Source: Pirellulaceae bacterium (GTDB lineage: Bacteria; Planctomycetota; Planctomycetia; Pirellulales; Pirellulaceae). Taken from it: a DNA stretch of 64,000 nucleotides. How positions within the stretch are numbered: the first letter of the stretch is position 1; each line of letters opens with the position of its first letter. The stretch covers positions 66,120-130,119 of the forward strand of contig JAVJSD010000014.1 in NCBI GenBank assembly GCA_040219575.1, read 5' to 3'. Below, piece by piece: positions 43,964 through 64,000 of the stretch. The position numbers and the translations under genes were made by a program. The notes below the pieces were generated by a model. It searched no databases. It had not been told where the DNA came from and saw only the letters and a list, made by a program, of their open reading frames with translations.

Positions 43964-44458
43964 TCAGTCTCGCGCCCAATGCTCACACAGAGGGCCGTCC
44001 GTCCCGTACACGGGATCGGCCTCGGGCAGCGGCGTGGCTGCGATCCGCTGCTCCGCCGCTTGTCGCTCCTCCGTCTCGCCGCGCATCAGGTCGTAGTTCT
44101 CCTGGCCGGCGGGGTACGCTCCCACGACCAGAAAGTCGCTGGACGCGTTGATCCGCTTGTGGCCGCTGCCGGTGGGCAGAATCGCCACGTCGCCGGCCTT
44201 CACGGAATGCACCGGTCCCTGCGGCCCGCCGAACTGAACCTCGGCGCTGCCGGCGCAGACACCCAGCACTTCATGGGCGTTGCTGTGGAAATGGTGGTAC
44301 GAGAAGACTCCGTTGCGCCACGAGCCACGCCAACCGTTCTCCGCGAATAGCCGCTCGAACTCTCCCGCCGCCTCCGTGCCTCGACTGCCGAGGGCCTCCT
44401 TGTAGATCAGCAACGGCAGATTCGGATTGTTGGGGGGAATCGAGCATGTGTGAAGCAA
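43964..44458 (-). CDS. cupin-domain protein
   Basis: Cupin motifs (HFHSNAHEVLGV, GDVAILPTGSGH). Confidence 0.7.
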   Translation of the reverse strand: MLHTCSIPPNNPNLPLLIYKEALGSRGTEAAGEFERLFAENGWRGSWRNGVFSYHHFHSNAHEVLGVCAGSAEVQFGGPQGPVHSVKAGDVAILPTGSGHKRINASSDFLVVGAYPAGQENYDLMRGETEERQAAEQRIAATPLPEADPVYGTDGPLCEHWARD

Positions 44459-49172: not shown

Positions 49173-49385
49173 GGTTCCCCTGCTTCCGTGACACAGTAGA
49201 TATGCTTCGACACTCCCTCAGCCACCGGCACCCGGTTCGCCCCCATCTGCGTACGTTGATTGTGCTGGTCATACCGCTTTGCTGCAAGAATTCGTCCGGC
49301 TCAGTCTAGTCCCAGGGTGTCCCCATTGACAACGCCCGCGGTCCGATTATGCGACCCGGGGGCGTCGAACTTTCGCTGTTGCCGA

Positions 49386-50423
49386 TCAAATCGCAAACGG
49401 CTTGGCCGTCTGCCACTTGTTGTCGGCGAGCCACTTCTTCGTGGCCGGCAGCGAGGCGTACACGATCCGCTCGCCGTCGCGAATCACCTGGCCGGTGAAC
49501 CGACCGGGCTGGACCGTCTCGATCGACAAGCCGGCGGTGGACTCGTCACAGGTGAGCATCAACTGCTCGTCAAGCAGGTCGCGCACCGTCGCCCTGGCTC
49601 GCTCGTCTTCCTGGCGGGCGATCTCGGCGATCACCGATTCCAGTTCGTCGAGCGAACCGATGTCGTCCGGCAGCGGCGTACGCGATGCCGGCACTGCGGC
49701 GCGCTCGCCCTTGAGTTGCGCGACGCGAATCGCCAGCGACCCGTAGCACTCACGGATCAAGCACGGCCACACGCTCCGCCAGTAGGCATGGGACGGAGCA
49801 CGCTCGACACCGACTACCTGGTCGTCGACCAGGATGATCGCGCCGATCTGTCGCGGCACGCACTCGAATTCGGCGACGAACTCGTCCAGCTCCTTCTGGA
49901 AGTGCTTGAGGAAGAACTCCAAGTGGCCAGCGGCCTGGAGTCCCATCTCCCGGTTGAACAGCGAAATGGCTTCCCACAGCTTGTTGAAGCTCGTCTCCTG
50001 CCGGACCTCCAGCGCTCGCTCCCGCAGCGCGTACGGGAGAATCAGCATCCGGTACGATCCGCGCTGGATGAAGCCGCCCTGCGACTGCTGGATGCACATC
50101 GCCGTGTCGAACGACCGCTGGCCGGCCGATCGAACCACGCCGGCATGCGCCATGGCGTGGTCCTGAGCGGCCTGCTTGACGACGTAGCCGGCGTGGCACG
50201 GGACGATCAGCACACAGTCACCCGGGTTGCGGAATCCAAGCGTTCCGTAGCTCGTCGTGAACACCTCGGCCTCGCCCTCGACGGGCGAGACGAAGCGATC
50301 GTCGGAAAGCTCACTCACCAGCGGAATGACCTGCATGTAGCCGACGCTCTGGATGCGGCCCGGCGTGCAGCCGTGCAGCACGTCAGCCACGCGGATCGTC
50401 TTCTGTCGGTTACGAAACACCAT
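49386..50423 (-). CDS. hypothetical protein, upstream partner of a vWA gene (14-bp overlap)
   Basis: 345 aa. No family recognised by eye. Translationally coupled to the vWA gene. Confidence 0.5.
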   Translation of the reverse strand: MVFRNRQKTIRVADVLHGCTPGRIQSVGYMQVIPLVSELSDDRFVSPVEGEAEVFTTSYGTLGFRNPGDCVLIVPCHAGYVVKQAAQDHAMAHAGVVRSAGQRSFDTAMCIQQSQGGFIQRGSYRMLILPYALRERALEVRQETSFNKLWEAISLFNREMGLQAAGHLEFFLKHFQKELDEFVAEFECVPRQIGAIILVDDQVVGVERAPSHAYWRSVWPCLIRECYGSLAIRVAQLKGERAAVPASRTPLPDDIGSLDELESVIAEIARQEDERARATVRDLLDEQLMLTCDESTAGLSIETVQPGRFTGQVIRDGERIVYASLPATKKWLADNKWQTAKPFAI

Positions 50424-51147: not shown

Positions 51148-51710
51148 GCCGACTGGTGCTGGGTACCGAGTCGAGAGCAGCCACCGTGTCTATTACCATT
51201 ACGCGGCCGGAGGACTTTCGCATCTGGCGACCGAAGGCCCGGATCGAATTATGTCCGGCGCCGAGGAGATCACCACATTGCCTGACTGGACGCAGACCGG
51301 CAGAGGAGCGGCCGCTTTTCCACACCTGGGCCTGCGAAACTGAAGCGCACAAGATCTGGATCGAGCACTGCGAGGCCGCCGAAGGGATCGAGGACGAGTT
51401 CGAGGCCCTCGAATTCCTCCTTGGCGAGTTCTGGACCTACCTCGAAGCAGCGGAGGCCGACAGCCGATTTCGCGACGAGGTCCCAGCGTTCGCCGCTGAA
51501 ATCAAATCGATGTTCAACGCTTGGCGATTAACCAATTTTCTCGACGGGGCAGGTCCTGCTGCGCCCATCGACACGATCAGCTTTGATGACGATGAGTCCG
51601 ATCCCGAGGAAGTCGAGGAGATCGTTCGGGAAGACGAAATTCAAGTTGCCCGCGATCTACGGCTAGTTGAGCGGGCAAGGGAATGGCTGCTGGAAGAGAG
51701 CGATCGATGA
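51135..51710 (+). CDS. hypothetical acidic protein (same frame as the downstream Toprim ORF, separated by one TGA)
   Basis: ORF only. Acidic, helical-looking. No motif recognised. Confidence 0.3.
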   Translation: MGRARRLVLGTESRAATVSITITRPEDFRIWRPKARIELCPAPRRSPHCLTGRRPAEERPLFHTWACETEAHKIWIEHCEAAEGIEDEFEALEFLLGEFWTYLEAAEADSRFRDEVPAFAAEIKSMFNAWRLTNFLDGAGPAAPIDTISFDDDESDPEEVEEIVREDEIQVARDLRLVERAREWLLEESDR

Positions 51711-51722
51711 TTCTTCGCCTAT

Positions 51723-52142
51723 TTGGGGCGTTGGCCGGGTGACGACTACGACGCGAAGAAGGGCCGCCCACGTTACCGGTGGCCTGACGGCTTCAGCAAA
51801 AGCCAAATCGTTTACGGCCTGTCGTTCGCGTTGGAGACGCCAGCGGATCGACCGCTGATCGTCGTGGAGAGCCCCTTTTCCGTCTTCCACCTCCACCAAG
51901 TTGGGCTGCCCAACACCGTCTCCATTTTTGGTTCGTCGCTCAGCGACGAACAGGCGGACATCCTCATTTGCACAGATCGACCGCTGATCCTGATGTTCGA
52001 CGGCGACGAAGCCGGCTTCAAGGGCATGCGCACCGCCGCGGCCAAGCTGATCCGCCACGCGTATGTGTGCGTGAATGAACTGCCCGAGGGCCGTCAGCCC
52101 GATGAGCTTGAACGTAGCGAAATCGCCGATTTGCTTCGGTGA
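51723..52142 (+). CDS. Toprim-domain protein, DnaG-primase-like C-terminal fragment (possible remnant)
   Basis: DnaG-like blocks RYRWPDGFSKSQIVYGL, Toprim Glu in LIVVESPF, and DxD in LMFDGDEAG. It lacks the zinc-binding and RNA-polymerase N-terminal parts. Confidence 0.5.
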   Translation: MGRWPGDDYDAKKGRPRYRWPDGFSKSQIVYGLSFALETPADRPLIVVESPFSVFHLHQVGLPNTVSIFGSSLSDEQADILICTDRPLILMFDGDEAGFKGMRTAAAKLIRHAYVCVNELPEGRQPDELERSEIADLLR

Positions 52143-52346
52143 TATCTCGCAGCAGCAAGACACCGACCGGTTTCCGCTCGGTGTCCTTTTCTATCCGAAG
52201 CCATGCGAGGCGACGCGTCGTTCAAATATCTAGTGAACGGGTGTCACCGTGGACAGCATCTGTCCAACCAACACCTTATCATTGGGCATTGCTTTCGTTT
52301 CACCTGTGTTTGTGAACACTCATCCATTCATCCTCTCCGGCGACCG

Positions 52347-53396
52347 ATGGAACCTAGCTCTCCGCTCCTCCGCCAATGGATGCTGCTCAAGCTACTCGCG
52401 GCGACGACGCAGGGACGCGCCGTCCGGGAGCTGGCTGACGAAATGAGTGTCAGCGAGAAAACCATCCGCCGCGATCTCGCCGTGCTGACCGACGCCGGGT
52501 TCCCCATCGAAGACAAAACCGGCGAGTTCGGCCGCAAGGCCTGGCGTATCGCCCCATCGTGGAGTCCGTCCCAGATGGCATTCACCTTTGACGAAGCTCT
52601 CGCGCTCTACCTCGGCCGCCAGTTTCTCGAACCGCTCGCCGGCACGTTGTTCTGGCAGTCCGCCCAGCGGGCGATGAACAAAATCCGTGCCACGCTGACG
52701 CCCTCCGCCCTCCGCTATGTTGATCGGGCCGCCGAGGTCCTCTACCACACGGCCTTCGGCGCCAGCGATTACTCCCGCAAGGCCGATTTGATCGACGCAC
52801 TAATGGTCGCCATCGAAGACCGCCATGCTGTGTTCCTGACCTACCGCTCGCAACGCGCCACGGAACCCGTCACCTACGACGCTTACCCCTACGGGCTCAC
52901 CTACCATCGAGGTTCCCTGTATCTGGTAGGCCGGGCGCCGCAACACGACGAAATCCGACACTGGAAGGTCGATCGCATCGAAGTGGTCGAGCCGGCCGAA
53001 CTGCAATTCTCTCGGCCGTCTGGTTTTAATCTCCGCCGCCATTTCGCCGACTCGTTCGGCATTTGGGACGGCCGCGGTCGCATCGCCGTCAGAATCCGCT
53101 TCTCGGCAGACGTTGCCCGCTACGTCGAGGAATCCACCTGGCACGCGAGCCAAAAGCTGCAACGTCAACACGACGGCACGCTGATCGCCACCTTTCGGCT
53201 CTCCGCCATCGAAGAGATCAAGTCCTGGATCCTCAGCTTCGGACGCCACGCCGACGTGCTTGGGCCGCCAGAGCTGCGTGAGGAGATTGCGACGGAATTG
53301 CAGACGCTACTGATGAGATACACCTCGACACTGGAACCGCAACTCGACGAACCAACCGACCATATAAGTCGAAGGCACCGGCCATCGAAACGCTGA
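52347..53396 (+). CDS. HTH + WYL-domain transcriptional regulator
   Basis: N-terminal HTH (LRQWMLLKLLAATTQGRAVRELADEMSVSEKTIRRDLAVL) and a WYL-like core (VTYDAYPYGLTYHRGSLYLVGRAPQHDEIRHWKVDRI). It lies immediately upstream of cas6. Confidence 0.75.
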   Translation: MEPSSPLLRQWMLLKLLAATTQGRAVRELADEMSVSEKTIRRDLAVLTDAGFPIEDKTGEFGRKAWRIAPSWSPSQMAFTFDEALALYLGRQFLEPLAGTLFWQSAQRAMNKIRATLTPSALRYVDRAAEVLYHTAFGASDYSRKADLIDALMVAIEDRHAVFLTYRSQRATEPVTYDAYPYGLTYHRGSLYLVGRAPQHDEIRHWKVDRIEVVEPAELQFSRPSGFNLRRHFADSFGIWDGRGRIAVRIRFSADVARYVEESTWHASQKLQRQHDGTLIATFRLSAIEEIKSWILSFGRHADVLGPPELREEIATELQTLLMRYTSTLEPQLDEPTDHISRRHRPSKR

Positions 53397-53529
53397 TCCG
53401 ATTTTCCGAAAAACTGTTGGACAACCGCACACATGCACTTCAGAATCAAGCGTCCGATCTTTCGCCACATCGCGGCAAGAGTCGCTCGTCCCGACAGGCT
53501 TCGTGGGCAGTTCTGAACGAGGGTAGGTC

Positions 53530-54156
53530 ATGCACATCGATCTTTCGTTTCGTCTCATTGGTCAGAGTACGATTCCCTCCGATCACGGCTACCACCTCTA
53601 CGCCGCGGTCTCTCGGGTTTCGTCGCAGGCGCACGAGCCGAACGGTATCGGCGTCCATCCGATACGCGGTCGACAAATCGGCGATCGGCAGATCCAGCTC
53701 ACCGATTTCAGCCGCCTGACCATCCGCACCGAAGCCGACCACATTTCTCGCTGGCTTCCGCTTGCCGGCAAGCAACTGAACGTCGGCGGCCGCCCAATTC
53801 GCGTGGGTGTACCGGAAGTCCGCAGTCTCACGCCAACCGTCGCGCTCCGCAGCCGGCTCGTCACTATCAAGGTCTCTTCTGTCCGTGGCGAGTCACCTGC
53901 CCCACCCGACGCAGAGAGTTTCCGCGCTGCCGCTCTCCGTCAACTCGCCTCGCTTGGTATTTCCGACGCGGCCTCGCTTACGCTTGGCAAGCGCCGCACG
54001 CTGCGCATCAAGGACAAAGAAGTAGTCGGATACGAAGTACTCGTCTCCGAACTCACCGTCGAAGATTCGCTGGTCCTTCAAGAGCGCGGCCTCGGCGGTC
54101 GCCGCCATATGGGCTGCGGGATCTTTGTACCGGTCAACAAGCGAGAGGAGGCGTGA
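53530..54156 (+). CDS. cas6: CRISPR endoribonuclease Cas6
   Basis: Glycine-rich C-terminal loop GLGGRRHMGCGIF and Cas6-like size. First gene of the cas operon. Confidence 0.8.
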   Translation: MHIDLSFRLIGQSTIPSDHGYHLYAAVSRVSSQAHEPNGIGVHPIRGRQIGDRQIQLTDFSRLTIRTEADHISRWLPLAGKQLNVGGRPIRVGVPEVRSLTPTVALRSRLVTIKVSSVRGESPAPPDAESFRAAALRQLASLGISDAASLTLGKRRTLRIKDKEVVGYEVLVSELTVEDSLVLQERGLGGRRHMGCGIFVPVNKREEA

Positions 54157-56489
54157 TGGACGTCAATCGATTGTGGGCGAAGAGCAAGCCGTACGGATGG
54201 GACGACGACGACCCACGAGTCGAGTCGCTCTACCTTCCGCAGCATCTACGCGACGTTCACGACGCCGCCAGCCAAATCCTCGAAACGACGGGAGATTCAC
54301 AGCTTCAATCGCTCGGCCTGGCCCCGAGACTTTGGCGAGACCGATTCCGACGCGTATTGCTTCTCGCCGCGGCCGTTCACGATCTCGGCAAATGTGGAAG
54401 TCACTTTCAACTTATGCTGAAGGGTCAAGGGCGCCAAGCATTGCGGCACGAGTGGGTCAGTTTATTGATTCTGGACACTCCAGGTTGGACGAGTTGGCTC
54501 GTCTCCGCCGTGGATGGTGAAGCGATCGACTTAGAGATTGTCCGTTGGGCCGTAGCGGGCCATCATCCCAGATACGATCGAACAGCCCCGCCGACATCAA
54601 ACGACGGGCCTGCCACGCTTCATCTACCACTGGATCACCAAGATATCTCCGAAACGCTCAAATGGCTGGGTAGTACGTTCTCCCTTCACGGGACGCCTTC
54701 GCAGGAACCACGCACCGTTTCCCTGACGTTTGATCCCGGCAACGCCATCGATGCGCTCGCTGATCGACACTACGCTGCTGAAGACTTGTTTGACGACTTT
54801 TCGTCCGAAATGCGTCGATTTGTCGCTGCCGTCAAGAATAGCCTTGTCTCCGCCGACATCGCGGGCTCAGCGTTGCCGCGGCTAGCGGATGCTCAAGCGA
54901 AGCGGCACTGGCTCCGTGACGTACTCAACCAGGAAGGTCTGCCGACGTCCAACGACTACCGACGAATTACGGCCATGCGACTCGGCCGCTGCGAGCCAGC
55001 GGCAGTCGAAGGGAAACTCCGTCGATTTCAGAAAGAAGTAGGCGCGTCGCCGGCCCGAGTGACCTTCGTTCGGGCTGGTTGCGGAACCGGAAAGACTATC
55101 GCTGCGTATTGGTGGGCAGCCAACGTCTGCGCTGGCCGGCGATTGTTCGTCTGCTATCCGACCACAGGCACGGCGACCGCCGGCTTCGCCGACTATCTGA
55201 TGGATCCGGAACTTTCCCAAGCGGTGAAGACCGACCTGATTCACGGTCGCCGTATAGTTGACTTTCGCATGCTGCAGGCAGACGAGGATCGCAATGAGTC
55301 TGTGTCGCGCATCGCATCACTCGACATGTGGCGGACGCCGGTCGTCTCCAGCACCGTCGATACGGTGCTCGGTCTCATCCAAAATAACCGTCGCGGCCTG
55401 TGCAATTGGCCCGCCATCGCACAAGCAGGATTCGTCTTTGACGAAATCCACAGCTACGACGACAAGCTGTTCGACGCCCTGCTTCACTTTCTCGCGACCA
55501 TTCGTGGTGCGCCGATCTTGCTGATGACCGCCAGCCTACAGGTTCGTCGACTGGAGGCGATTCGATCGGTGCTTGCGGCGGCCGACGACCCACTTGCCGA
55601 GATTCCCGGGCCAGAGACGCTGGAAAGAGTTCCGCGGTATCAGCAGCGCCGCGACGTCAAAGCCAAGGACACGAAGCAAATCGACGCGATGATCCATGAG
55701 GAGGTCTCGCAGGGTGGAAAAGCTTTGTACGTTTGCAACACGGTGACCGATGCATTGCGAACAGCAGATCGGCTTGCGAAGTTGAAGCCCTTTGTCTACC
55801 ACAGTCGCTTTCGCTATCGCGATCGCGTTGAACGACACAAGAGCGTTGTCGAGGCGTTTCGACGCAAAAGCAAGTCTTCCGCCTTGGCGATTTGCACCCA
55901 AGTAGCGGAGATGTCCCTTGACCTCTCCGCGACACTCCTCGTGACCGCATTGGCGCCTGTGCCGTCGTTGATTCAGCGGCTTGGGCGCTTGAATCGTATC
56001 GAAAGGCCGGTGGAGCCACGACCATTCGTCATCGTCGAACCCCTCGGCGCCGATGGCAAGTACTCTCCACTTCCATACGAAGAAGGCGACTTGAAATCGA
56101 GCAAGAGTTGGCTTGAGGCAATCGGTGATGAACCTTGTTCTCAGCGCGACTTGGCCGACGCATGGGAGCGCCTCGCGGAAGGCGATTCGCCGTGTGCTCC
56201 GCCGCGTTGGCAGAGCGCATGGCTAGACTATGGGCCAGCTACTCCCGTCCTCGAACTTCGTGACGGATCACCCACACTTACGGTCATTCTCGAGGAAGAC
56301 TGGCCCCGGCTCTGCTCCCCCGACAATGCGACCGCATTGGCCGAGGTCGCCCTGCCCATGCCCATCCGCCCCGGCGACGACTGGCAGCTAAGAGATCGTG
56401 AAGACCGGCCACTGGAGTTCGCCGGAGTACCGGTCGCCAAGGCGGACAAGATCGACTATGACCCTCAACGAGGTGCGCAATGGCTGTAG
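54153..56489 (+). CDS. cas3: Cas3 (HD nuclease fused to DExH helicase)
   Basis: N-terminal HD motif (AAAVHDLGK), Walker A (GCGTGKT), DEIH box (FVFDEIH), and a helicase C-terminal domain. Confidence 0.9.
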   Translation: MMDVNRLWAKSKPYGWDDDDPRVESLYLPQHLRDVHDAASQILETTGDSQLQSLGLAPRLWRDRFRRVLLLAAAVHDLGKCGSHFQLMLKGQGRQALRHEWVSLLILDTPGWTSWLVSAVDGEAIDLEIVRWAVAGHHPRYDRTAPPTSNDGPATLHLPLDHQDISETLKWLGSTFSLHGTPSQEPRTVSLTFDPGNAIDALADRHYAAEDLFDDFSSEMRRFVAAVKNSLVSADIAGSALPRLADAQAKRHWLRDVLNQEGLPTSNDYRRITAMRLGRCEPAAVEGKLRRFQKEVGASPARVTFVRAGCGTGKTIAAYWWAANVCAGRRLFVCYPTTGTATAGFADYLMDPELSQAVKTDLIHGRRIVDFRMLQADEDRNESVSRIASLDMWRTPVVSSTVDTVLGLIQNNRRGLCNWPAIAQAGFVFDEIHSYDDKLFDALLHFLATIRGAPILLMTASLQVRRLEAIRSVLAAADDPLAEIPGPETLERVPRYQQRRDVKAKDTKQIDAMIHEEVSQGGKALYVCNTVTDALRTADRLAKLKPFVYHSRFRYRDRVERHKSVVEAFRRKSKSSALAICTQVAEMSLDLSATLLVTALAPVPSLIQRLGRLNRIERPVEPRPFVIVEPLGADGKYSPLPYEEGDLKSSKSWLEAIGDEPCSQRDLADAWERLAEGDSPCAPPRWQSAWLDYGPATPVLELRDGSPTLTVILEEDWPRLCSPDNATALAEVALPMPIRPGDDWQLRDREDRPLEFAGVPVAKADKIDYDPQRGAQWL

Positions 56490-58177
56490 CAAGGTCGATA
56501 AAGTGCAGCGAGGCTTTGGCGCCGGCGGATATGTCGTTTGAGTTGTTCGCTCCTGGCATGACCCCACTCCACCGCGCCGGACTCGGCGGGCTGGCAGCAA
56601 CTCTACTGGCGATGACTCGTCGGCGGAAACTGGGTCTGATTTCCCAAGACGATCTGCCAGGTGACTGGTCCAGCGGCGAGCCCTGGACGATTAAGCCGGA
56701 TCGCTTAGTTCTCCATTTCCGGGAACCAGAAGGAGCGGCGGACTACTTGCGCAAGTTGTTCGCTTTCGCATTCTCCATAAAGGACAAACTGATCGACTTG
56801 CCCGGTATCTACCGCGATGAATTGAACCGAGCCGTGCGCGCGGAGTTGCAACTCGGCCTGACATTGACGTTTCTTCAATTTGGTCCACATCGGAAGTTAG
56901 AGCCAGAAACGAAACTCACTTTCGATGTCACCGGCGATGGGACTGCCGAGATCGCCGTCGGCATCCGCGCCTGTCATGGATATCTCCATCAGGATGCTGT
57001 CGAACGACTCAAACTCTTCGACAAGAAGGGCCGCTTGAACTGGAAAGCCACCGAGACTCCCAGCGCCTTCAATCCGGGCGCCGTCGTGCGACACAACGCG
57101 TTTGGAACAAGTACGCGTATTGAAGAATTGCCACCCGCAGGAATCGCGGCCTGCTTTGCCATCGTAGGAGCACTTTCACTGGCGGTTAACCGAGGCGTGG
57201 GGGTGCTGTTGATCCCAGAAGTTGACGACTTAGAGAGGTTCGCTCGATCTCGACCGCGTATGACTCCTACAACTCTGCGCGAGTGTCGCATTAGTGCGGC
57301 GAGCGACGCCGCAATGCAGGCAGAAGTTCGCTTGCGGGCAAGAGGACAGATGCAGCGGCATGGACTCACGGGGATCTACACCATGCAGCTACGCCCTACG
57401 CAGTGGAACGAAAAGCAGAAGACTCGCGTTGCTACGCTGCACATTCCTTGCTGCACAGATCCAACGCTGGAGCGATTCAATTTGGCGTTGAGGCACCTGC
57501 CGCCACGCATCTACTCGTATGCGGAGCCCGTTACCGGAGGACGAGGGCGAAGGAGCGACACCCCGCAGTTTGTCTGGCGCTGGAAAGACAGTCTTGTTCG
57601 TCCGCTCGTCGCCGACAATCTTGCGACTGGCCGCAGATGGTACGACGGGTTCGCGGACTTGATGACAGGGCAAGATGGTTCTCACGTCCCAATCCATCAA
57701 CGGATTTCATTCGAAGCGGAGGGTTTGTACGCGATGCTCAGTGAGAAACAAGGCGGCATGACCGAAGAGGAAGAACGAAACTTGATTGGAGCGATCCATC
57801 GAGCTGTCTACATGCAGCGAGGCAAGATCTACGCTGACACGATGGGAAAACGGCCTGAGGCCGGCGGGGCAAAACCGAGCCAAGCCTGCTTTAACCGTTG
57901 GTCGCGATTGATGGAGCGACTGCGGCTGGGGTTGATCAACTCCAAGACCGCGGAACAGACGCGTCGCCTTCTCCAGGACGACATCTTTGGCCGGGCCGGC
58001 ACGATTCCGGAGCTCAAAGACCACGAAAAACTCCGCCAAGTCCATCGACTGATATTTCACGATGACTGGCGAAGGCTACGAGACCTCACCATGCTCGCTG
58101 TGGTCAGCTATAAAGCGCCTGCGGACAGGGCCCCCATCCCCGGCGAAGACGATACGGAAATCGAGAACGATTCCTGA
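56480..58177 (+). CDS. cas8: Cas8 large subunit (type I-B / MYXAN-like Cas8)
   Basis: 565 aa between cas3 and cas7. N-terminal MTPLHRAGLGGL block. Assigned by position and size. Confidence 0.65.
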   Translation: MAVARSIKCSEALAPADMSFELFAPGMTPLHRAGLGGLAATLLAMTRRRKLGLISQDDLPGDWSSGEPWTIKPDRLVLHFREPEGAADYLRKLFAFAFSIKDKLIDLPGIYRDELNRAVRAELQLGLTLTFLQFGPHRKLEPETKLTFDVTGDGTAEIAVGIRACHGYLHQDAVERLKLFDKKGRLNWKATETPSAFNPGAVVRHNAFGTSTRIEELPPAGIAACFAIVGALSLAVNRGVGVLLIPEVDDLERFARSRPRMTPTTLRECRISAASDAAMQAEVRLRARGQMQRHGLTGIYTMQLRPTQWNEKQKTRVATLHIPCCTDPTLERFNLALRHLPPRIYSYAEPVTGGRGRRSDTPQFVWRWKDSLVRPLVADNLATGRRWYDGFADLMTGQDGSHVPIHQRISFEAEGLYAMLSEKQGGMTEEEERNLIGAIHRAVYMQRGKIYADTMGKRPEAGGAKPSQACFNRWSRLMERLRLGLINSKTAEQTRRLLQDDIFGRAGTIPELKDHEKLRQVHRLIFHDDWRRLRDLTMLAVVSYKAPADRAPIPGEDDTEIENDS

Positions 58178-58210
58178 ACATACCTTAACATACAGCAAGA
58201 GATCGATACC

Positions 58211-59131
58211 ATGACTCTACATGTCTTTGCGAGTATCGCGACAGGCTACGGAACGGCGGGCAACAATCGCGGCGAAACCGAGGGCAATACAACGACGCTG
58301 CAAAAGTTGATCTGGCATGGTCAGCCGCATACGACCGTTAGCGCCGAGGCGATCCGCTTCGCATTGCGGCGGCTTCTAACATGCAAAGAACAAGCTGGCA
58401 CGAATCGAACCTGGAACGAAGCGACTCGCAGGAACGACTGGCAGGACGCCGAATTCAAAAAGTGGCGCAAAGAGGAAGCCGGCTTCATCGACGACGATCT
58501 ACTTGGATTCATGTCCGCCGAAGCCGCGAAAGACGAAAACACAAAGGGATCCGCCAACGTACGGCGTGCCGTGCTGGAAATGACGCGCGCCGTCTCTCTT
58601 ACACCTTGGCCGGGCGACGTTGTCTTCAACGCTGCCTCGCCGCGCGCAACCGCCTCTGCCGCGAAAGGCGAGGGCGACAATCCTGTGCCTTATATGGCCG
58701 AGGTCCACGCCACTCGCTACCAGTATGGACTTGCGATGACACCGACTGCACTTCGCGACCGCTCTCGGGCAGCGAAGGGACTTGAGGCAGTTGCTTCATT
58801 GGGGACTGTCGCGGGCAATCACGCCAGATTCCTGTTCGACTTCGCGCCTGAAGCCATCGTCATTCGATTAACGGAGGATCCCGCTCCTCGCTTACTTTAT
58901 TGCTTCGATACGGCGGATGGCGGAAAGACCATCGGGGCAGAGACGCTTGTCAAGAGAATTCAGTCTGAGGACATCAATCCAGACGAACTGATTCTTGGCG
59001 TGGTCGACCTCGACGCCTCTCTCGCGGATCAGCTCAAGACGGCGGGCGTGAACCAGATCCACGGCGTTCGACGCGCAGTAGAACTGGCATGCAAGCGAAT
59101 CAACGAGCACTCAGACGTGAAAGGCGGCTGA
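58211..59131 (+). CDS. cas7: Cas7 backbone subunit
   Basis: Cas7-type N-terminus (GYGTAGNNRGE...), AIRFALRR block, 306 aa. Confidence 0.8.
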   Translation: MTLHVFASIATGYGTAGNNRGETEGNTTTLQKLIWHGQPHTTVSAEAIRFALRRLLTCKEQAGTNRTWNEATRRNDWQDAEFKKWRKEEAGFIDDDLLGFMSAEAAKDENTKGSANVRRAVLEMTRAVSLTPWPGDVVFNAASPRATASAAKGEGDNPVPYMAEVHATRYQYGLAMTPTALRDRSRAAKGLEAVASLGTVAGNHARFLFDFAPEAIVIRLTEDPAPRLLYCFDTADGGKTIGAETLVKRIQSEDINPDELILGVVDLDASLADQLKTAGVNQIHGVRRAVELACKRINEHSDVKGG

Positions 59132-59132
59132 T

Positions 59133-59798
59133 ATGATCGGCGTCTATGTCACGGTTCCGATCGCCTGTTTTCGCAAAGGCCTCGCGCGCGAGTTTTTGGA
59201 GACAGAAATCCTTCCTCCACCAGCGACTTGTTATGGCTTCCTGCTCTCGCTTGTCGGAGAAGCCGATCGTCGGCGGCACGTCGCCTGTCGGATCGCGCCT
59301 GCCGTGATTAGGCGTGAACTGCGCGTGAGCACAGTCCTCCGAACCGTCTGGCGGCTGAAACACCGCGATCGCGATCCTGGCGCATCGGGCAACATGCGTC
59401 CAGACTTCCAGCAACTACTCACCGGACTCGAATTGGTCATATGGCTGGATTCAAACGAAGAGATAAGTAGCGGCCCAGCGCTCGAGGAACGAGTTCGTCA
59501 CGCTCTGGCTTTCCCTTCCTCTATCACTCGATACGGAGGCTTGAGTCTCGGTGAGAGCACCCACCTCATCGACGAGGTCTCCGTCATCAACGACAGCTTC
59601 CGACTAGAACGAGATGAACCGTCGTGTCAAATGTTCCTCACTTCCCAACGTGGGCCGCTAACGCTGCCAGTCTGGGTCGACCACGTGGGGTCAGCGGGCA
59701 CACGATATGCAACAGGAGAAATCGAGGTTGTCCCTGCCTTCACCTCCCCCGCGGCAAGCCGCATGTCGCAGATCGACAGAGCGTCTCAGTCGGAATAA
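59133..59798 (+). CDS. cas5: Cas5
   Basis: Cas5 hallmark N-terminus VPIACFRKGLAREFLETEILPPPATCYGFLLSLVG. Starts 2 nt after cas7. Confidence 0.75.
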   Translation: MIGVYVTVPIACFRKGLAREFLETEILPPPATCYGFLLSLVGEADRRRHVACRIAPAVIRRELRVSTVLRTVWRLKHRDRDPGASGNMRPDFQQLLTGLELVIWLDSNEEISSGPALEERVRHALAFPSSITRYGGLSLGESTHLIDEVSVINDSFRLERDEPSCQMFLTSQRGPLTLPVWVDHVGSAGTRYATGEIEVVPAFTSPAASRMSQIDRASQSE

Positions 59799-59813
59799 CG
59801 CAAGGAATGGAAA

Positions 59814-61532
59814 GTGCGTGCTCGAATTCCGCCCCACTCTGATTTGACAGCCGAACACACTCCTAATAGCAACGACGCCAGCCCCGCCGAGCCGCCGGTG
59901 CGCGTGATGGCACTACACGCCCTCCTTTACTGCGAGCGGCTCTTTTACCTTGAAGAGGTCGAGGAGATCCGCGTGGCCGACGGGGCGGTGTATGCGGGTC
60001 GCCGACTGCACGACAACGTGGTTCCCCTCGAGGACGAAACTCCCGAGTATCGATCCATAGAACTGGGCAGCGACGACTGGGGCATTTTGGGCAAGGCCGA
60101 CGCCGTGCGCAGGCGCGATGGAAAGTGGGTCGCGTACGAACACAAACGCGGCCGCTGTCGGCGCGATGAAAACAATCGCCCCGCCGCCTGGCTGAGCGAC
60201 CGCATGCAGGCAATCGCCTACGCGGTTCTGATAGAGGAGGCGCTTGGCGAGCCCGTGCTACAATCGCGGGTCCGCTATCACGCCGACAACGTCACTGCGT
60301 TCGTCGATATCAACGATCAGGCTCGCCAGGATCTGCGCAGCGCCGTCGAACGAGCCCGGTCGTTGCGGCGCACCACGCAGCGCCCGCCTGTTGCCGAGAA
60401 CGAAAACCTCTGCCGCCGCTGTTCGCTGGCGCCGGTCTGCCTGCCGGAGGAGGAACGATTGGCGGCGGCGGTCAAAGCAGAGACCCCACCGCCTGCGCGA
60501 CTGTTTCCTTCGGATCGGCGCAAGCAATCGCTGCATCTACTATCGCCCCGCACTCGGCTTGGGCGCAGCGGCAAGACGCTGGTGGTGACCACCGACGAGG
60601 GCAAGGAAAAAGTTCCCGTCAACGACATTGACTCCGTTGTTGTGCATGGTTTCGCCCAGGTGACCACCCAAGCGATTCATCTCTGCGCCAGCCACGACGT
60701 TTCTATCGCGTGGCTCACGGGCGGCGGCAGGTTTGCAGCGGGTACGGCGGCCTCAGCCGGCCGAGTTCAGCAGCGACTGCGACAGTATCACGCACTGGCC
60801 GACGACGCGTTCCGGCTTAAACTGGCACGGCAGCTTGTCCACGCAAAGGTTGAGACGCAACTGCGATACTTGTTGCGGGCAACTCGAGGCAACCAGGCCG
60901 CCCGTGAAGCTTCCCGGCCAGAGATCGAGCAGATTCGAGAGGCGATAAAACGCATTGTGAAGGCGACTTCAATCCCGACTTTGCTCGGATTGGAAGGAAT
61001 CGCCGCCAAGGCGTATTTCGCCTGCGTGCCGCGACTGCTCGGCGACCAGGCCGACGACAAGTTGCGGCCGTCTGGCCGGTCGAAACATCCGCCTGGTGAC
61101 CGCTTTAACGCGGCGCTCAGCTTTGGTTACGCCCTTGTGCAGTCACTCGTTATGCGCAGCGCGCTGGCCGTCGGCCTGGAGCCGGCGTTCGGCTTCTACC
61201 ACCAGCCGCGCACGGCAGCCCATCCTCTCGTGCTGGACGTGATGGAGTTGTATCGCACGCCACTCTGGGAGATGCCCTTGATAGGCAGCATCAATCGCGG
61301 GCAATGGCAGCCCGACGAGGATTTTTCGGTGACGCGCCAGCAGGTCTGGCTTTCGGAGTCGGGCCGTAAGAAGGCTTTGCAATTGTTCGAGCAGCGCTTG
61401 CAGGAATCGTACCGGCACCCGTACACCGGGCAGTCGCTGACCTACGCCCGGCTGGTCGAGCTGGAGGTGCGGTTGCTGGAAAAGGAGTGGACCGGCTGTC
61501 CAGGAGTCTTCGCCCAGATGCGATTGAGGTGA
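59814..61532 (+). CDS. cas4-cas1: Cas4-Cas1 fusion protein
   Basis: N-terminal Cas4 (ALHALLYCERLFYLEEV, and the C-terminal Fe-S cysteine cluster CRRCSLAPVC), followed by a Cas1 integrase domain. Confidence 0.85.
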   Translation: MRARIPPHSDLTAEHTPNSNDASPAEPPVRVMALHALLYCERLFYLEEVEEIRVADGAVYAGRRLHDNVVPLEDETPEYRSIELGSDDWGILGKADAVRRRDGKWVAYEHKRGRCRRDENNRPAAWLSDRMQAIAYAVLIEEALGEPVLQSRVRYHADNVTAFVDINDQARQDLRSAVERARSLRRTTQRPPVAENENLCRRCSLAPVCLPEEERLAAAVKAETPPPARLFPSDRRKQSLHLLSPRTRLGRSGKTLVVTTDEGKEKVPVNDIDSVVVHGFAQVTTQAIHLCASHDVSIAWLTGGGRFAAGTAASAGRVQQRLRQYHALADDAFRLKLARQLVHAKVETQLRYLLRATRGNQAAREASRPEIEQIREAIKRIVKATSIPTLLGLEGIAAKAYFACVPRLLGDQADDKLRPSGRSKHPPGDRFNAALSFGYALVQSLVMRSALAVGLEPAFGFYHQPRTAAHPLVLDVMELYRTPLWEMPLIGSINRGQWQPDEDFSVTRQQVWLSESGRKKALQLFEQRLQESYRHPYTGQSLTYARLVELEVRLLEKEWTGCPGVFAQMRLR

Positions 61533-61535
61533 ACG

Positions 61536-61832
61536 ATGGCGGCCAAGCAATGGCACCTGATTACGTACGATGTGCGTGACCCCAAGCGACTGCGGCGGGT
61601 TGCCAAGCTGCTTGAATCGTACGGCACACGGGTGCAATACAGCGTGTTTCGCTGCCGCCTGGACGCCCTGGCGCTGGAAAAGTTGACTTGGGAGTTGAAC
61701 CAACTGATGGATGAGGTCGACGACTTGTTGGTGATTCCCCTCTGTCGCCAATGCGCGGGCAAAGTGCCGACGCATTCGACGGGCGACCAATCACACTGGG
61801 TGGACGCTCCACCGGCGTTTCGGATTGTGTAG
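61536..61832 (+). CDS. cas2: Cas2
   Basis: MAAKQWHLITYDVRDPKRLRRVAKLLESYGTRVQYSVF is typical of Cas2. Confidence 0.85.
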   Translation: MAAKQWHLITYDVRDPKRLRRVAKLLESYGTRVQYSVFRCRLDALALEKLTWELNQLMDEVDDLLVIPLCRQCAGKVPTHSTGDQSHWVDAPPAFRIV

Positions 61833-62187: not shown

Positions 62188-64000
62188 GTGTCCGCTTCGT
62201 TGATGCCGAAAGGCGTTGAGCACATGCCGCGTGCCGTTGATGCGGCTTGGCGTTGCAGGTGTGTCCGCTTCGTTGATGCCGAAAGGCGTTGAGCACTTGA
62301 GCACGGCCCGCGAGACCACGCAGCTGATGCGTGTCCGCTTCGTTGATGCCGAAAGGCGTTGAGCACGAAGACAAATGCCCTGAGCGGTTCCACGCGAGCC
62401 CGGTGTCCGCTTCGTTGATGCCGAAAGGCGTTGAGCACACGCCGCCCAAACGACCGACAAGAACGCGAAACACTGGTGTCCGCTTCGTTGATGCCGAAAG
62501 GCGTTGAGCACTTGAGCATCGGGCGATTTCAGGAAAACGGCAGCAGCAGTGTCCGCTTCGTTGATGCCGAAAGGCGTTGAGCACTACCAACCGCTCATCC
62601 CGAACGCGGCGCAGCAGACGTGTCCGCTTCGTTGATGCCGAAAGGCGTTGAGCACTGCTTCGAGCTATTCATCGTCGCGGCGTTGATCGAGGTGTCCGCT
62701 TCGTTGATGCCGAAAGGCGTTGAGCACTCCCCCATGGCAGCGTTGTATCGGCGGAGGAATTGTGTCCGCTTCGTTGATGCCGAAAGGCGTTGAGCACTCG
62801 TACCGCCGCATCAGTTCATGGGCGAGTGCTTCGTGTGTCCGCTTCGTTGATGCCGAAAGGCGTTGAGCACTTGAACCACAAGCTGCTGCTAGCCGTGTTC
62901 GCCGATGTGTCCGCTTCGTTGATGCCGAAAGGCGTTGAGCACTAGTGGGCGGTCTCGATCTTCGCCGGCGAGACCAAGTGTCCGCTTCGTTGATGCCGAA
63001 AGGCGTTGAGCACCTGGGGATGCCTACCGCCGCTGCCCGCGATGGTGTGTCCGCTTCGTTGATGCCGAAAGGCGTTGAGCACTTCAAAGCCGGATCGCCG
63101 AAAGCAACGAGCAATTGTGTCCGCTTCGTTGATGCCGAAAGGCGTTGAGCACTTTCTGACCGTTCGCTCGATCGACAAGGGGCTCGCTGTGTCCGCTTCG
63201 TTGATGCCGAAAGGCGTTGAGCACAGGCACGACGCGCCGCCGAATTTGGATTGCGCCGTAGTGTCCGCTTCGTTGATGCCGAAAGGCGTTGAGCACCGAC
63301 CGGGGAGGCATCCACACTGCAAGACCGTTTCGGTGTCCGCTTCGTTGATGCCGAAAGGCGTTGAGCACCTGCACCTACGAAAAAAGGGCCGACGCGAATA
63401 CGCGCCGTGTCCGCTTCGTTGATGCCGAAAGGCGTTGAGCACCTTTGATAGGTGCTGGTCATGTCGGGTTGCGGTAAGTGTCCGCTTCGTTGATGCCGAA
63501 CGGCGTTGAGCACCAGTCATTACCGACCCAGTATGGCCGAACGCCCCGGTGTCCGCTTCGTTGATGCCGAAAGGCGTTGAGCACTCGGGAACCGTGACCT
63601 TGTAGTCCTGTGATGCCGTGTGTCCGCTTCGTTGATGCCGAAAGGCGTTGAGCACCCTTCGTTGCAAGCGTTGCCTGCGGATCGCTCGGTTGTGTCCGCT
63701 TCGTTGATGCCGAAAGGCGTTGAGCACAAGAATATCCGGACACGTTCGACGTCGAAGCGATCGCGTGTCCGCTTCGTTGATGCCGAAAGGCGTTGAGCAC
63801 GAACGCTTCCCGTTTGGCCCCCCGGCGCATCCCAGTGTCCGCTTCGTTGATGCCGAAAGGCGTTGAGCACATTCAATTACTCCCTGGGGGTCGCTTGGTT
63901 GGTTCGTGTCCGCTTCGTTGATGCCGAAAGGCGTTGAGCACTTTGACCAGAAAGAGCGCGAGCTGCTCAAGCGGCTCGCGTGTCCGCTTCGTTGATGCCG
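62188..64000 (+). CRISPR. CRISPR array, 36-bp repeat GTGTCCGCTTCGTTGATGCCGAAAGGCGTTGAGCAC, at least 26 repeats (last truncated by the window), 35-37-bp spacers
   Basis: Repeats and spacers counted directly in the sequence, period ~71.6 bp. About 350 bp of AT-richer leader lies between cas2 and the first repeat. One variant repeat at 63478 (AAAGG to AACGG). Transcription direction is inferred from leader position only. Confidence 0.95.

What the first reader, a model, noticed from the sequence alone, without database searches (positions are those of the whole stretch)
52347..53396. WYL-domain regulator positioned as gatekeeper of the cas operon
A DeoR-like HTH plus WYL protein ends 134 bp upstream of cas6. 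WYL regulators are known ligand-responsive repressors or activators of CRISPR-Cas and other defence operons (BrxR/CapW-type). The 134-bp spacer (53397-53529) is the likely operator/promoter.
Basis: partly seen in the sequence, partly recalled or inferred. Interest (0 to 1): 0.5.

Follow-up and report, generated by a model that had tools for sequence, protein, structure and literature searches.

The report
WYL regulator heading a CRISPR-Cas operon
A ligand-sensing DNA-binding protein sits at the head of a type I CRISPR-Cas operon in a planctomycete. Its likely control site is a conserved palindrome upstream of its own gene, not the gap before cas6, and the promoter looks like those switched on by DNA-damage-sensing relatives, an ordinary but well-defined example of a known kind.

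Summary
Window 52347-53396 (+) encodes a 349-aa wHTH-WYL-WCX protein, with Pfam WYL at 3e-18 and WCX at 2e-20. It ends 133 nt before cas6 of a complete type I-MYXAN cas operon with a CRISPR array.

In 35 of 60 planctomycete homolog loci the gene directly heads I-MYXAN, I-G or I-C cas operons, often with overlapping stop and start codons. That supports a regulatory link and co-transcription.

The likely operator is not in the spacer. A 17-bp near-palindrome, TGGWCNNGATCTGWCCA, is about 50-fold enriched upstream of these WYL genes. In the window it lies at 52250-52266. It sits exactly 10 nt before a TAnnnT -10 element in 33 of 41 sites, and no -35 element is present.

This register, TGWCCA-N10-TAnnnT, matches the PafBC -26 element, and the spacing matches the DriD palindrome. 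By sequence and fold the protein is closest to the activators DriD and PafBC, not to BrxR or CapW.

The 133-nt spacer holds only a conserved sigma-70-like promoter (TTGGACA-N17-CAGAAT) and no inverted repeat.

My best reading is a self-controlled, probably ssDNA-responsive activator of the WYL-cas operon. A repressor mode is not excluded. It is a new member of a known kind, of moderate interest.

The parts
51714..52142 (+). C-terminal remnant of a Toprim-domain gene. It marks the left edge of the module shared with locus L081. The overlapping minus-strand ORF 51663-52163 is probably spurious.
   Evidence: tblastn: 75% identity to residues 214-355 of the L081 Toprim protein. Nucleotide homology with L081 begins at 51715.
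52159..52192 (+). Intrinsic-terminator-like hairpin (GACACCGACCGG/CCGCTCGGTGTC) followed by a T-run. It insulates the WYL promoter from upstream transcription.
   Evidence: Inverted repeat; terminator scan; fold -17.9 kcal/mol, z = -2.56; conserved in L081.
52250..52269 (+). Predicted WYL operator TGGACAGCATCTGTCCA plus the conserved ACC. It spans about -39 to -20 of the predicted WYL promoter (P_wyl).
   Evidence: It is the only match with 1 mismatch or fewer in the 64 kb. It is invariant in window, L084 and L081 while the flanks diverge. The family motif is about 50-fold enriched upstream of WYL genes. Profile.
52277..52282 (+). Predicted -10 hexamer TATCAT of the WYL promoter. No -35 element lies at 16-18 nt spacing.
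   Evidence: TAnnnT lies exactly 10 nt after the motif in 33 of 41 distinct sites. The best TTGACA match at 16-18 nt spacing is 3/6 or lower in every site. Invariant in window, L084 and L081.
52347..53396 (+). wHTH-3HB-WYL-WCX transcription factor gene, 349 aa. Domain positions in nucleotides: HTH 52383-52523, helical bundle about 52566-52754, WYL 52788-52991, WCX 53079-53312.
53397..53529 (+). 133-nt WYL-cas6 spacer. It has no terminator, no inverted repeat and no operator copy.
   Evidence: RNA fold z = +0.98.
53417..53446 (+). Sigma-70-like internal promoter candidate (P_cas6): TTGGACA, 17 nt, CAGAAT.
   Evidence: Consensus scan, 9 of 12 matches. Conserved in L084, and in L081 where it stays with cas6 although an extra ORF separates cas6 from the WYL gene.
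53530..61832 (+). Type I-MYXAN cas operon: cas6/cmx6, cas3, cas8/cmx1, cas7/DevR, cas5/cmx5, cas4-cas1, cas2.
   Evidence: Pfam. NCBIfam hits above the curated cutoffs.
62188..63800 (+). CRISPR array, about 22 copies of the 36-nt repeat GTGTCCGCTTCGTTGATGCCGAAAGGCGTTGAGCAC.
   Evidence: Tandem Repeats Finder.

Best explanation
The gene encodes a homodimer-type wHTH-WYL-WCX transcription factor and is the first gene of the WYL-cas transcription unit.

Proposed mechanism, with each step marked as shown or inferred:
1. Its wHTH domains bind the 17-bp near-palindrome TGGACAGCATCTGTCCA at 52250-52266. This site occupies the -35 region (about -39 to -23) of a promoter that has a good -10 (TATCAT, 52277-52282) but no -35. 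The conserved motif, its fixed spacing and the missing -35 are shown by comparison of loci. Binding itself is inferred.
2. The WYL/WCX ligand pocket senses a nucleic-acid signal, most likely short ssDNA made during phage infection, DNA damage or Cas3 action. This is inferred from DriD, PafBC and CapW, and from partial conservation of the contact residues.
3. The ligand-bound protein then recruits or adapts the housekeeping RNA polymerase to this -35-less promoter, as DriD, PafBC and SiwR do. That raises transcription of its own gene and, by read-through, of cas6-cas3-cas8-cas7-cas5-cas4/1-cas2. No terminator lies in the spacer. This step is inferred.
4. A separate sigma-70-like promoter in the 133-nt spacer (TTGGACA-N17-CAGAAT) probably gives basal cas expression that does not depend on the WYL protein.

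The same regulator family and operator head I-G and I-C cas operons, HIRAN-ARPP-1 genes and other defence-like genes across the Planctomycetota. This points to a shared inducible defence regulon.
For: Architecture and fold. The helical bundle at residues 74-136 and the overall length match DriD (327 aa).

Nearest solved relatives are activators:
- phmmer against PDB sequences: DriD 7e-15, PafBC 4e-8, no BrxR or CapW hit.
- Foldseek: DriD 7e-18 and PafBC 1e-13, against BrxR 5e-7 and CapW 4e-6.

Synteny:
- 35 of 60 loci have cas genes next on the same strand, spanning I-MYXAN, I-G and I-C.
- In 14 of 23 loci where cas is the very next gene, the gap is 3 nt or less, which indicates one operon.

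Operator:
- The motif is about 50-fold enriched in the 300 nt upstream of WYL genes. With no mismatch there are 9 hits in 23 kb against 6 in 914 kb. With up to 2 mismatches there are 24 against 21.
- Several of the 'elsewhere' hits sit just upstream of HIRAN-ARPP-1 genes that precede a WYL gene.
- The motif is invariant in the three closest loci.
- It is the only good hit in the window.

Reciprocal test: a motif-only scan of metagenomes returned 24 loci. In 6 of them a WYL homolog starts 160-320 nt downstream, and 3 more carry a WYL gene nearby.

Promoter geometry:
- TAnnnT lies exactly 10 nt after the motif in 33 of 41 sites, and no site has a -35.
- The register TGWCCA(N10)TAnnnT equals the PafBC motif tGTCgg(N10)tA(N3)T, with GWC at -27 to -25 (PMC8635444).
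- The palindrome has the same GWC-N7-GWC geometry as the DriD site ATACGAC-N7-GTCGTAT. DriD sites overlap the -35 position at a fixed distance from the -10, in promoters that lack a -35 (PMC13004042).
- The SiwR palindrome lies between -35 and -10, and its -26 region is essential (PMC10693628).

Ligand pocket: DriD ssDNA contacts map as Y168 to Y166, Y192 to Y192, R204 to R204, W206 to W206, R207 to K207 and Y240 to W240. These are conserved or similar, and Y166, Y192 and K207 are invariant in the family (PMC9186387).

Precedent: the WYL activator DdaA induces CRISPR-Cas in Acinetobacter (PMC12392091).
Against: - Nothing here is experimental. DNA binding, the ligand and the sign of regulation are all inferred.
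- A site overlapping the -35 region could equally serve a repressor.
- The only characterised WYL regulator encoded at a CRISPR locus (Sll7009, type I-D) is a negative regulator (PMC4012209). The defence-linked BrxR and CapW are also repressors (PMC11662680, PMC9122601).
- Four DriD ssDNA-contact positions (R176, R178, K202, R288) are not conserved in the pairwise alignment.
- Planctomycete promoter rules are poorly known, so 'no -35' rests on the E. coli-type consensus.
- The window's own operator lacks the central G (GCATCT instead of GGATCT).
- The motif also heads operons with no adjacent WYL gene, so a different factor binding it is not formally excluded.
- Neighbour gene calls in the related loci come from a crude longest-ORF method. 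The cas assignments were nevertheless confirmed by tblastn and NCBIfam.
Confidence: 0.55

Rival explanations
1. Same protein and same operator, but it works as a BrxR/CapW/Sll7009-like repressor. Without ligand it sits on 52250-52266 and blocks RNA polymerase at the WYL-cas promoter. Binding of ssDNA or another ligand releases it and de-represses the operon.
For: The operator overlaps the core promoter region. Defence-linked WYL regulators characterised so far (BrxR, CapW, Sll7009) are repressors (PMC9122601, PMC11662680, PMC4012209). The fold family is shared. A regulator as first gene of its own operon is typical of self-repressors.
Against: The promoters lack any -35 at proper spacing in all 41 sites, so an unaided polymerase would have a weak promoter to repress. 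The operator-to-(-10) distance is fixed to the nucleotide and matches the PafBC -26 register (PMC8635444). Sequence and fold are much closer to the activators. The BrxR operator lies downstream of the -10, not at -35 (PMC9122601). No BrxR or CapW model appears among the PADLOC hits.
Confidence: 0.25
2. One reading: the regulator acts mainly on the 133-nt spacer (53397-53529), which holds both the operator and the promoter of cas6.
For: A sigma-70-like promoter, TTGGACA-N17-CAGAAT, is conserved there in three loci. Its -35 element contains one operator half-site (TGGACA followed by ACC). In relative L089 a full operator plus -10 sits in the WYL-cas6 spacer. BrxR can act through a single repeat (PMC9122601).
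Against: There is no inverted repeat in the spacer and no match to the operator within 3 mismatches. In L081 this promoter stays with cas6, separated from the WYL gene by an extra ORF. Most relatives have no spacer at all. The full palindrome lies upstream of the WYL gene in the window and in its closest relatives.
Confidence: 0.08
3. The protein acts mainly at the protein or nucleic-acid level as a Cas3/Cascade accessory factor. This would resemble WYL1 stimulating Cas13d, or the WYL modules fused to some Cas3 proteins. It would not be a transcription factor.
For: The PADLOC Cas3c model PDLC01766 aligns its N-terminal residues 17-317 to the whole protein (4.6e-35), so the same module occurs fused to Cas3. 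WYL-Cas3 fusions are noted in PMC4012209. In I-G and I-C relatives the gene is translationally coupled to cas3. WYL1 (6oaw) is a fold match.
Against: The protein has an intact DeoR-type wHTH with a near-invariant recognition helix. A conserved palindrome is coupled to a -10 element upstream of the gene, whatever the cargo. The same regulator heads non-CRISPR cargo such as HIRAN-ARPP-1. The two roles are not mutually exclusive.
Confidence: 0.07
4. The adjacency has no functional meaning for CRISPR. The WYL protein regulates only itself or unrelated genes, and the cas operon is driven solely by the promoter in the spacer.
For: 25 of 60 homolog loci carry no cas genes next to the WYL gene. The window has a plausible stand-alone cas6 promoter.
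Against: The linkage recurs across three cas subtypes, with overlapping stop and start codons. No terminator lies between the WYL gene and cas6. All the closest relatives (62-80% identity: L001-L003, L081, L084) are cas-linked.
Confidence: 0.05

Closest known systems
DriD (Caulobacter crescentus), an ssDNA-activated wHTH-3HB-WYL-WCX homodimeric activator
   Same: It is the best sequence and fold match and is similar in length and domain order, including the helical bundle. The target has the same palindromic GWC-N7-GWC geometry. The site overlaps the -35 position at a fixed distance from the -10, in promoters that lack a -35 (PMC13004042). Six ssDNA-contact residues are conserved or similar.
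   Different: Identity is only 22-23%. The half-site sequence differs (TGGWC against ATACGAC). DriD controls a DNA-damage regulon from a separate locus, whereas this protein is encoded at the head of cas and other defence operons. Four DriD ssDNA contacts are not conserved.
PafBC and SiwR (mycobacteria), WYL activators that work through a -26 element by sigma adaptation
   Same: The promoter register is identical: TGWCCA(N10)TAnnnT against tGTCgg(N10)tA(N3)T, with GWC/GTC at -27 to -25 and no -35 (PMC8635444). SiwR likewise uses a palindrome between -35 and -10 (PMC10693628). They are the second-best structural matches.
   Different: PafBC is a heterodimer or fusion with a non-palindromic site. 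This protein is a single chain that is presumably a homodimer, with a palindromic site. The targets here are defence genes, not DNA repair genes.
DdaA (Moraxellaceae), a WYL activator of the DNA damage response that also induces CRISPR-Cas and restriction-modification systems
   Same: A WYL activator that places CRISPR-Cas under a shared operator is already documented experimentally (PMC12392091). The concept is the same as the one inferred here.
   Different: DdaA acts in trans from its own locus. [quoted passage not shown] Here the regulator is encoded in cis as the first gene of the operon.
BrxR and CapW, defence-island wHTH-WYL-WCX repressors
   Same: They share the broad fold family, sit as the first gene next to defence systems, and sense ssDNA (shown for CapW, PMC11662680).
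   Different: They are much more distant (12-14% identity, Foldseek 5e-7 or weaker, no phmmer hit against PDB sequences). They are shorter. The BrxR operator lies downstream of the -10 and acts as a roadblock (PMC9122601).
Sll7009 (Synechocystis) and the generic 'CRISPR-associated WYL' ancillary genes (Makarova 2014; PADLOC and CRISPRCasTyper WYL profiles)
   Same: These are WYL regulators encoded at type I CRISPR loci. The PADLOC CRISPR-associated WYL profiles hit at 2e-37 and 2e-35.
   Different: Sll7009 is a negative regulator of a type I-D system. The NCBIfam CRISPR-associated WYL model TIGR03985 scores only 18.8 bits against a cutoff of 60, so this protein belongs to a different subfamily.

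Membership tests
wHTH-WYL-WCX transcription factors | N-terminal winged HTH DNA-binding domain | tested here: met
   Pfam HTH_11 at 8.8e-9 (35.6 bits, cutoff 25) and HTH_DeoR at 1.5e-5. The recognition helix VSEKTIRRDL is near-invariant.
wHTH-WYL-WCX transcription factors | WYL (Sm-like) domain followed by the WCX domain | tested here: met
   PF13280 at 3.3e-18 and PF25583 at 2.1e-20, both above cutoff. The model has the beta-rich 160-220 and beta-alpha-beta 246-327 elements. Foldseek hits all solved members.
wHTH-WYL-WCX transcription factors | Sequence-specific binding to a (pseudo)palindromic operator as a dimer | not testable with these tools
   Only inferred, from the conserved 17-bp near-palindrome upstream of family members.
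DriD/PafBC/SiwR-type WYL activators | Closer in sequence and structure to the activators than to the repressors, with a helical bundle between the wHTH and WYL domains | tested here: met
   phmmer: DriD 7e-15, PafBC 4e-8, no repressor hit. Foldseek: DriD 7e-18 and PafBC 1e-13, ahead of BrxR at 5e-7. Helices 74-136 are present in the model (pLDDT 59-84 in that region).
DriD/PafBC/SiwR-type WYL activators | Target promoters lack a -35 element, and the regulator site overlaps the -35/-26 region at a fixed distance from a canonical -10 | tested here: met
   33 of 41 sites have TAnnnT exactly 10 nt after the motif. The best -35 match is 3/6 or lower in every site. The register is identical to the PafBC motif (PMC8635444).
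DriD/PafBC/SiwR-type WYL activators | Conserved ssDNA-contact residues in the WYL and linker regions | tested here: inconclusive
   Six of ten DriD contact positions are conserved or similar: Y166, Y192, R204, W206, K207 and W240. Four are not: the equivalents of R176, R178, K202 and R288 (PMC9186387).
DriD/PafBC/SiwR-type WYL activators | Ligand-dependent activation of transcription through RNA polymerase contacts | not testable with these tools
   Requires in vitro transcription or genetics.
BrxR/CapW-type defence repressors | Match to BrxR or CapW family profiles or structures as the nearest relatives | tested here: not met
   The PADLOC scan lists CRISPR-associated WYL, Cas3c, CasR and Csa3 models but no BrxR or CapW. 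Foldseek E-values are 5e-7 to 4e-4 at 10-14% identity, well behind DriD and PafBC.
BrxR/CapW-type defence repressors | Operator placed so as to block an otherwise complete promoter (for BrxR, downstream of the -10) | tested here: not met
   The operator lies upstream of the -10, and the promoter has no -35 (PMC9122601).
CRISPR-associated WYL ancillary genes | Match to the CRISPR-associated WYL profiles and adjacency to cas genes | tested here: met
   PDLC01652 at 2.4e-37 and PDLC01457 at 1.6e-35. cas genes follow in the window and in 35 of 60 homolog loci. NCBIfam TIGR03985 is below its cutoff (18.8 against 60).
Type I-MYXAN (I-B variant) CRISPR-Cas system (the regulated cargo) | Cmx6/Cas6, Cas3, Cmx1/Cas8, Cas7/DevR, Cmx5/Cas5/DevS, Cas4-Cas1(MYXAN) and Cas2, plus an array | tested here: met
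   NCBIfam scores against cutoffs: TIGR02807 172 vs 98.85, TIGR03485 153.9 vs 80.85, TIGR03486 72.2 vs 47.4, TIGR02585 135.3 vs 72.75, TIGR02586 172.9 vs 111.5, TIGR03983 473.8 vs 358, TIGR01573 58.6 vs 24.5. Array.

The most novel reading that the evidence does not exclude
Across the Planctomycetota, one family of cis-encoded DriD/PafBC-like WYL activators may place type I CRISPR-Cas operons (I-MYXAN, I-G, I-C) and other defence modules (HIRAN-ARPP-1, SNF2-NOV_C helicases) under a common -35-less 'sigma-adaptation' promoter, TGGWC-N7-GWCCA-N10-TAnnnT.

CRISPR immunity would then be switched on by ssDNA as part of a phylum-wide, SOS-independent infection and damage regulon. ssDNA made by Cas3 could add positive feedback.
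Probability: 0.35. Interest if true: 0.6.

Novelty: new member of a known kind. Interest (0 to 1): 0.42.

Why it matters
How CRISPR-Cas expression is tied to infection is poorly understood outside a few model organisms. This locus offers a defined and testable regulator-operator-promoter triplet for type I systems in an understudied phylum. It has a 17-bp site and a promoter geometry that predict activation by the same mechanism as the DNA-damage regulators PafBC and DriD.

If confirmed, it would extend sigma-adaptation-type control from DNA repair to adaptive immunity. It would also give a portable inducible promoter for planctomycetes.

As it stands, it is a well-supported instance of the known class of CRISPR-associated WYL regulators. 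A WYL activator of CRISPR-Cas (DdaA) has already been shown experimentally in another phylum.

Tried and rejected
1. Inverted and direct repeats inside the spacer 53397-53529. There is no inverted repeat. The only direct repeat is a weak 12-nt one, TCCGATTTTCCG/TCCGATCTTTCG, which is not conserved in L084 or L081. Rejected as an operator.
2. The minus-strand 166-aa ORF 51663-52163 as a divergent partner gene. Rejected. The plus strand there is a Toprim-gene remnant homologous to L081, and the hairpin at 52159-52185 is its terminator.
3. The longer ORF start at 52203 and the start in the NCBI record at 52380. Rejected on N-terminal conservation.
4. An apparent WYL-Cas3 fusion in L078. It was an artefact of reading through a stop codon. 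The WYL gene and cas3g are separate but in the same frame.
5. Structured RNA or a tRNA near the locus. No Rfam hit and no tRNA. The spacer RNA folds no better than shuffled sequence.
6. The left half-site TGGWCN as a -35 element. It lies 21 nt from the -10, which is too far.
7. Homology among the roughly 160-aa ORFs inserted between the WYL gene and cas6 in relatives. None was detectable.
8. A link between the window's ARPP-1 gene and the HIRAN-ARPP-1 genes that precede WYL genes elsewhere. The similarity is at Pfam level only, with no tblastn hit, and no operator lies near the window's ARPP-1 gene. Left as an observation.
Full report
**Observation**

The region 52347-53396 (+) is a genuine gene. 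Its product of 349 aa carries three domains in Pfam:
- a DeoR/HTH_11-type winged helix at residues 13-59;
- a WYL domain, PF13280, at residues 148-215 (E 3.3e-18);
- a WCX domain, PF25583, at residues 245-322 (E 2.1e-20).

An identical protein is annotated 'WYL domain-containing protein [Pirellulaceae bacterium]', but from an internal Met. Alignment with 22 homologs shows that the N-terminal SPLxRQW block is conserved, so ATG 52347 is the true start.

An AlphaFold model (pLDDT 78) matches every solved wHTH-WYL-WCX protein.

Downstream, NCBIfam and Pfam identify a complete type I-MYXAN set: cas6/cmx6, cas3, cas8/cmx1, cas7/DevR, cas5/cmx5, cas4-cas1 and cas2. A CRISPR array of about 22 repeats follows. 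The gap between the WYL stop codon and the cas6 ATG is 133 nt.

**Surroundings**

The minus-strand ORF just upstream (51663-52163) has no family match. The plus strand at 51714-52142 is 75% identical to the C-terminal third of a Toprim protein that precedes the WYL gene in the closest related locus, L081. Nucleotide homology between the two loci starts at 51715.

A conserved hairpin with a T-run at 52159-52192 is the terminator of that remnant. The WYL gene therefore starts a new transcription unit.

Further upstream lie an ARPP-1 gene and a large nSTAND NTPase, both on the minus strand, so the setting is a defence island.

**Is the link with cas real?**

A scan of species-representative genomes gave 80 loci encoding relatives at 44-65% identity. 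Nearly all are labelled Planctomycetota, and some genomes hold 2-3 copies. I called ORFs, clustered the neighbours and named the clusters with tblastn and NCBIfam.

Of the 60 loci (including the window) with at least 3 kb of downstream sequence, 35 have cas genes among the next four co-directional genes:

| Subtype | Loci |
|---|---|
| I-MYXAN | 8 |
| I-G | 16 |
| I-C | 4 |
| partial or other | 7 |

Where a cas gene comes immediately next (23 loci), the gap is 3 nt or less in 14. The window's 133 nt is at the long end of the range.

The two closest relatives (80% identity) are also followed by cas6. L084 has a spacer of about the same length (134 nt by the called genes), and L081 has an extra 158-aa ORF in between. 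PADLOC's CRISPR-associated WYL profiles hit at 2e-37. The association is strong and usually operonic.

A second recurring partner is a HIRAN-ARPP-1 gene directly upstream on the same strand, seen in 14 loci.

**Where is the operator?**

The spacer 53397-53529 has no inverted repeat and no unusual RNA structure. The region upstream of the WYL gene holds a perfect 7+3+7 palindrome, TGGACAGCATCTGTCCA, at 52250-52266.

Several results point to this palindrome as the operator:
- Across the family the consensus TGGWCNNGATCTGWCCA is about 50-fold enriched in the 300 nt before the WYL start compared with the rest of the loci. It is almost always in the gene's orientation.
- Several of the remaining hits lie just before the HIRAN-ARPP-1 genes that precede a WYL gene, so they too sit at the head of the operon.
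- In the window it is the only match with 1 mismatch or fewer in 64 kb, and none lies in the spacer.
- In the three closest loci, the palindrome, the following ACC and a TATCAT hexamer are invariant while the flanks diverge.
- A reciprocal scan of metagenome contigs using the motif alone returned 24 loci. Six have a WYL homolog starting 160-320 nt downstream. Three more have a WYL gene nearby.
- One of these, L089, carries the operator and a -10 element in the 70-nt gap between the WYL gene and cas6.
- The remaining motif loci are headed by an SNF2-NOV_C helicase, a CpXC protein or an ECF sigma factor. This hints at regulation in trans.

**Promoter geometry**

The motif was aligned across 41 distinct sites from the WYL-anchored loci.
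- A TAnnnT hexamer lies exactly 10 nt after the motif in 33 sites.
- No site has better than 3/6 matches to TTGACA at 16-18 nt spacing.
- If the hexamer is taken as -12 to -7, the palindrome spans -39 to -23, and the promoter-proximal GWC sits at -27 to -25.

This is the register of the mycobacterial PafBC motif tGTCgg(N10)tA(N3)T. PafBC replaces -35 recognition by 'sigma adaptation' (PMC8635444). The palindrome's GWC-N7-GWC layout equals that of the DriD site ATACGAC-N7-GTCGTAT. DriD sites overlap the -35 position at a fixed distance from the -10, in promoters that lack a -35 (PMC13004042). SiwR behaves in the same way (PMC10693628). The BrxR operator, by contrast, lies downstream of the -10 (PMC9122601).

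**Which WYL subgroup?**

- phmmer against PDB sequences finds only DriD (7e-15) and PafBC (4e-8).
- Foldseek ranks DriD at 7e-18 (22-23% identity) and PafBC at 1e-13. BrxR (5e-7), WYL1 (5e-7) and CapW (4e-6) follow at 12-14% identity.
- The model has a helical bundle between the wHTH and WYL domains, and the protein's length is close to DriD's.
- Six of ten DriD ssDNA-contact residues are conserved or similar (Y166, Y192, R204, W206, K207, W240). Four are not (PMC9186387).
- Both the activator and the repressor subgroups sense ssDNA (PMC11662680), so ssDNA is the best guess for the ligand whichever mode applies.

**The spacer**

The spacer contains TTGGACA-17 nt-CAGAAT. This element is conserved in L084, and in L081 it stays next to cas6 although another ORF separates cas6 from the WYL gene. 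It looks like an ordinary promoter with both a -35 and a -10, and it probably provides basal cas expression. Its -35 element includes one operator half-site (TGGACA followed by ACC), so weak binding of the WYL protein there cannot be excluded.

**Mechanism proposed**

The WYL protein binds the palindrome at its own -35-less promoter. When loaded with ssDNA, it helps the housekeeping RNA polymerase to start there. This raises transcription of its own gene and, by read-through, of the cas operon. Basal cas expression comes from the spacer promoter.

Shown here: domain architecture, synteny, the conserved motif, its fixed spacing to the -10, the absence of a -35, and the nearest relatives. Inferred: DNA binding, the ligand, the sign of regulation and read-through.

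| Reading | Probability |
|---|---|
| Activator (best explanation) | about 0.55 |
| Repressor using the same operator | about 0.25 |
| Operator in the spacer | under 0.1 |
| Cas3 accessory factor | under 0.1 |
| No functional link to CRISPR | under 0.1 |

The Cas3-accessory reading has some support from a PADLOC Cas3c model whose N-terminus aligns with the whole protein and from the WYL-Cas3 fusions noted in PMC4012209.

**Novelty**

CRISPR-associated WYL regulators have been a recognised class since 2014 (PMC4012209). Sll7009 is a known negative regulator of a type I-D system. A WYL activator, DdaA, has been shown to induce CRISPR-Cas in Acinetobacter (PMC12392091).

This locus is therefore a new member of a known kind. 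What is added here is a defined operator, a PafBC/DriD-like promoter architecture, and evidence that one regulator-operator pair serves three type I subtypes and other defence genes across the Planctomycetota. I found no paper describing this. Interest is moderate.

Noticed in passing
window 51714-52142 (+), breakpoint at about 51715: This is a truncated C-terminal third of a Toprim-domain gene, 75% identical to the full 355-aa gene upstream of the WYL gene in L081. Homology with L081 starts abruptly at 51715, which suggests a rearrangement or insertion boundary of a mobile WYL-cas module. The antisense 166-aa ORF is probably spurious.
   Followed up: partly
window 44535-50423 (-): A defence-island-like pair lies upstream: a 1545-aa protein with a weak nSTAND NTPase match (44535-49172) and an ARPP-1 domain protein (49386-50423). 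In 14 homolog loci a HIRAN-ARPP-1 gene directly precedes the WYL gene under the same operator (for example L015, L024, L025, L050). The window's ARPP-1 is only distantly related to those and has no operator nearby.
   Followed up: partly
L089 (oriented) 611-643, and L101: In L089 the full operator plus TAAAGT -10 element lies in the 70-nt gap between the WYL stop codon and the cas6 ATG. In L101 an operator follows a WYL gene. The family therefore uses both 'operator before WYL' and 'operator between WYL and cargo' layouts.
   Followed up: partly
L091, L098, L088, L106 (motif-only metagenome hits): The same operator and -10 element head genes with no adjacent WYL gene: an SNF2 helicase with a NOV_C (DUF3883-like) C-terminus, a CpXC zinc-ribbon protein and an ECF-type sigma factor. 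This suggests a regulon controlled in trans.
   Followed up: partly
L048 9251-9742, L058 9274-9753, L059 9300-, L081 7295-7771: Several I-MYXAN relatives carry a small, poorly conserved ORF of about 160 aa between the WYL gene and cas6. Some of these look like sigma-70 region-4 HTH proteins by eye. There is no Pfam hit for the L081 copy and no mutual BLAST similarity. The window lacks such an ORF.
   Followed up: partly
L001-L003, L013, L033 (genes -2 and -1 relative to the WYL gene): A serine recombinase and a conserved ORF of about 118 aa sit immediately upstream of the WYL-cas modules of different subtypes (I-MYXAN and I-G). This is consistent with these modules moving as cassettes.
   Followed up: no
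PADLOC model PDLC01766 (Cas3c): The whole HTH-WYL-WCX protein aligns to the N-terminal 300 residues of a 1009-residue Cas3c profile (4.6e-35). The same module therefore exists fused to Cas3 in some type I systems.
   Followed up: no
operator centre, columns 7-10 of the motif profile: About 77% of operator sites carry a central GATC (GGATCTG), which is a potential Dam-type methylation site. The promoter-proximal half (ATCTGWCCAACC) is more conserved than the distal half. The window and its two closest relatives have GCATCTG and so lack the GATC.
   Followed up: no
window 52380 (NCBI start) versus 52347: The public annotation of the identical protein (338 aa) starts 11 codons too late. It omits the conserved SPLLRQW N-terminus.
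   Followed up: yes
window 43227-43940 (+) and 43964-44458 (-): A PIN_3 domain protein and a cupin-domain protein flank the nSTAND gene. They were not examined further.
   Followed up: no
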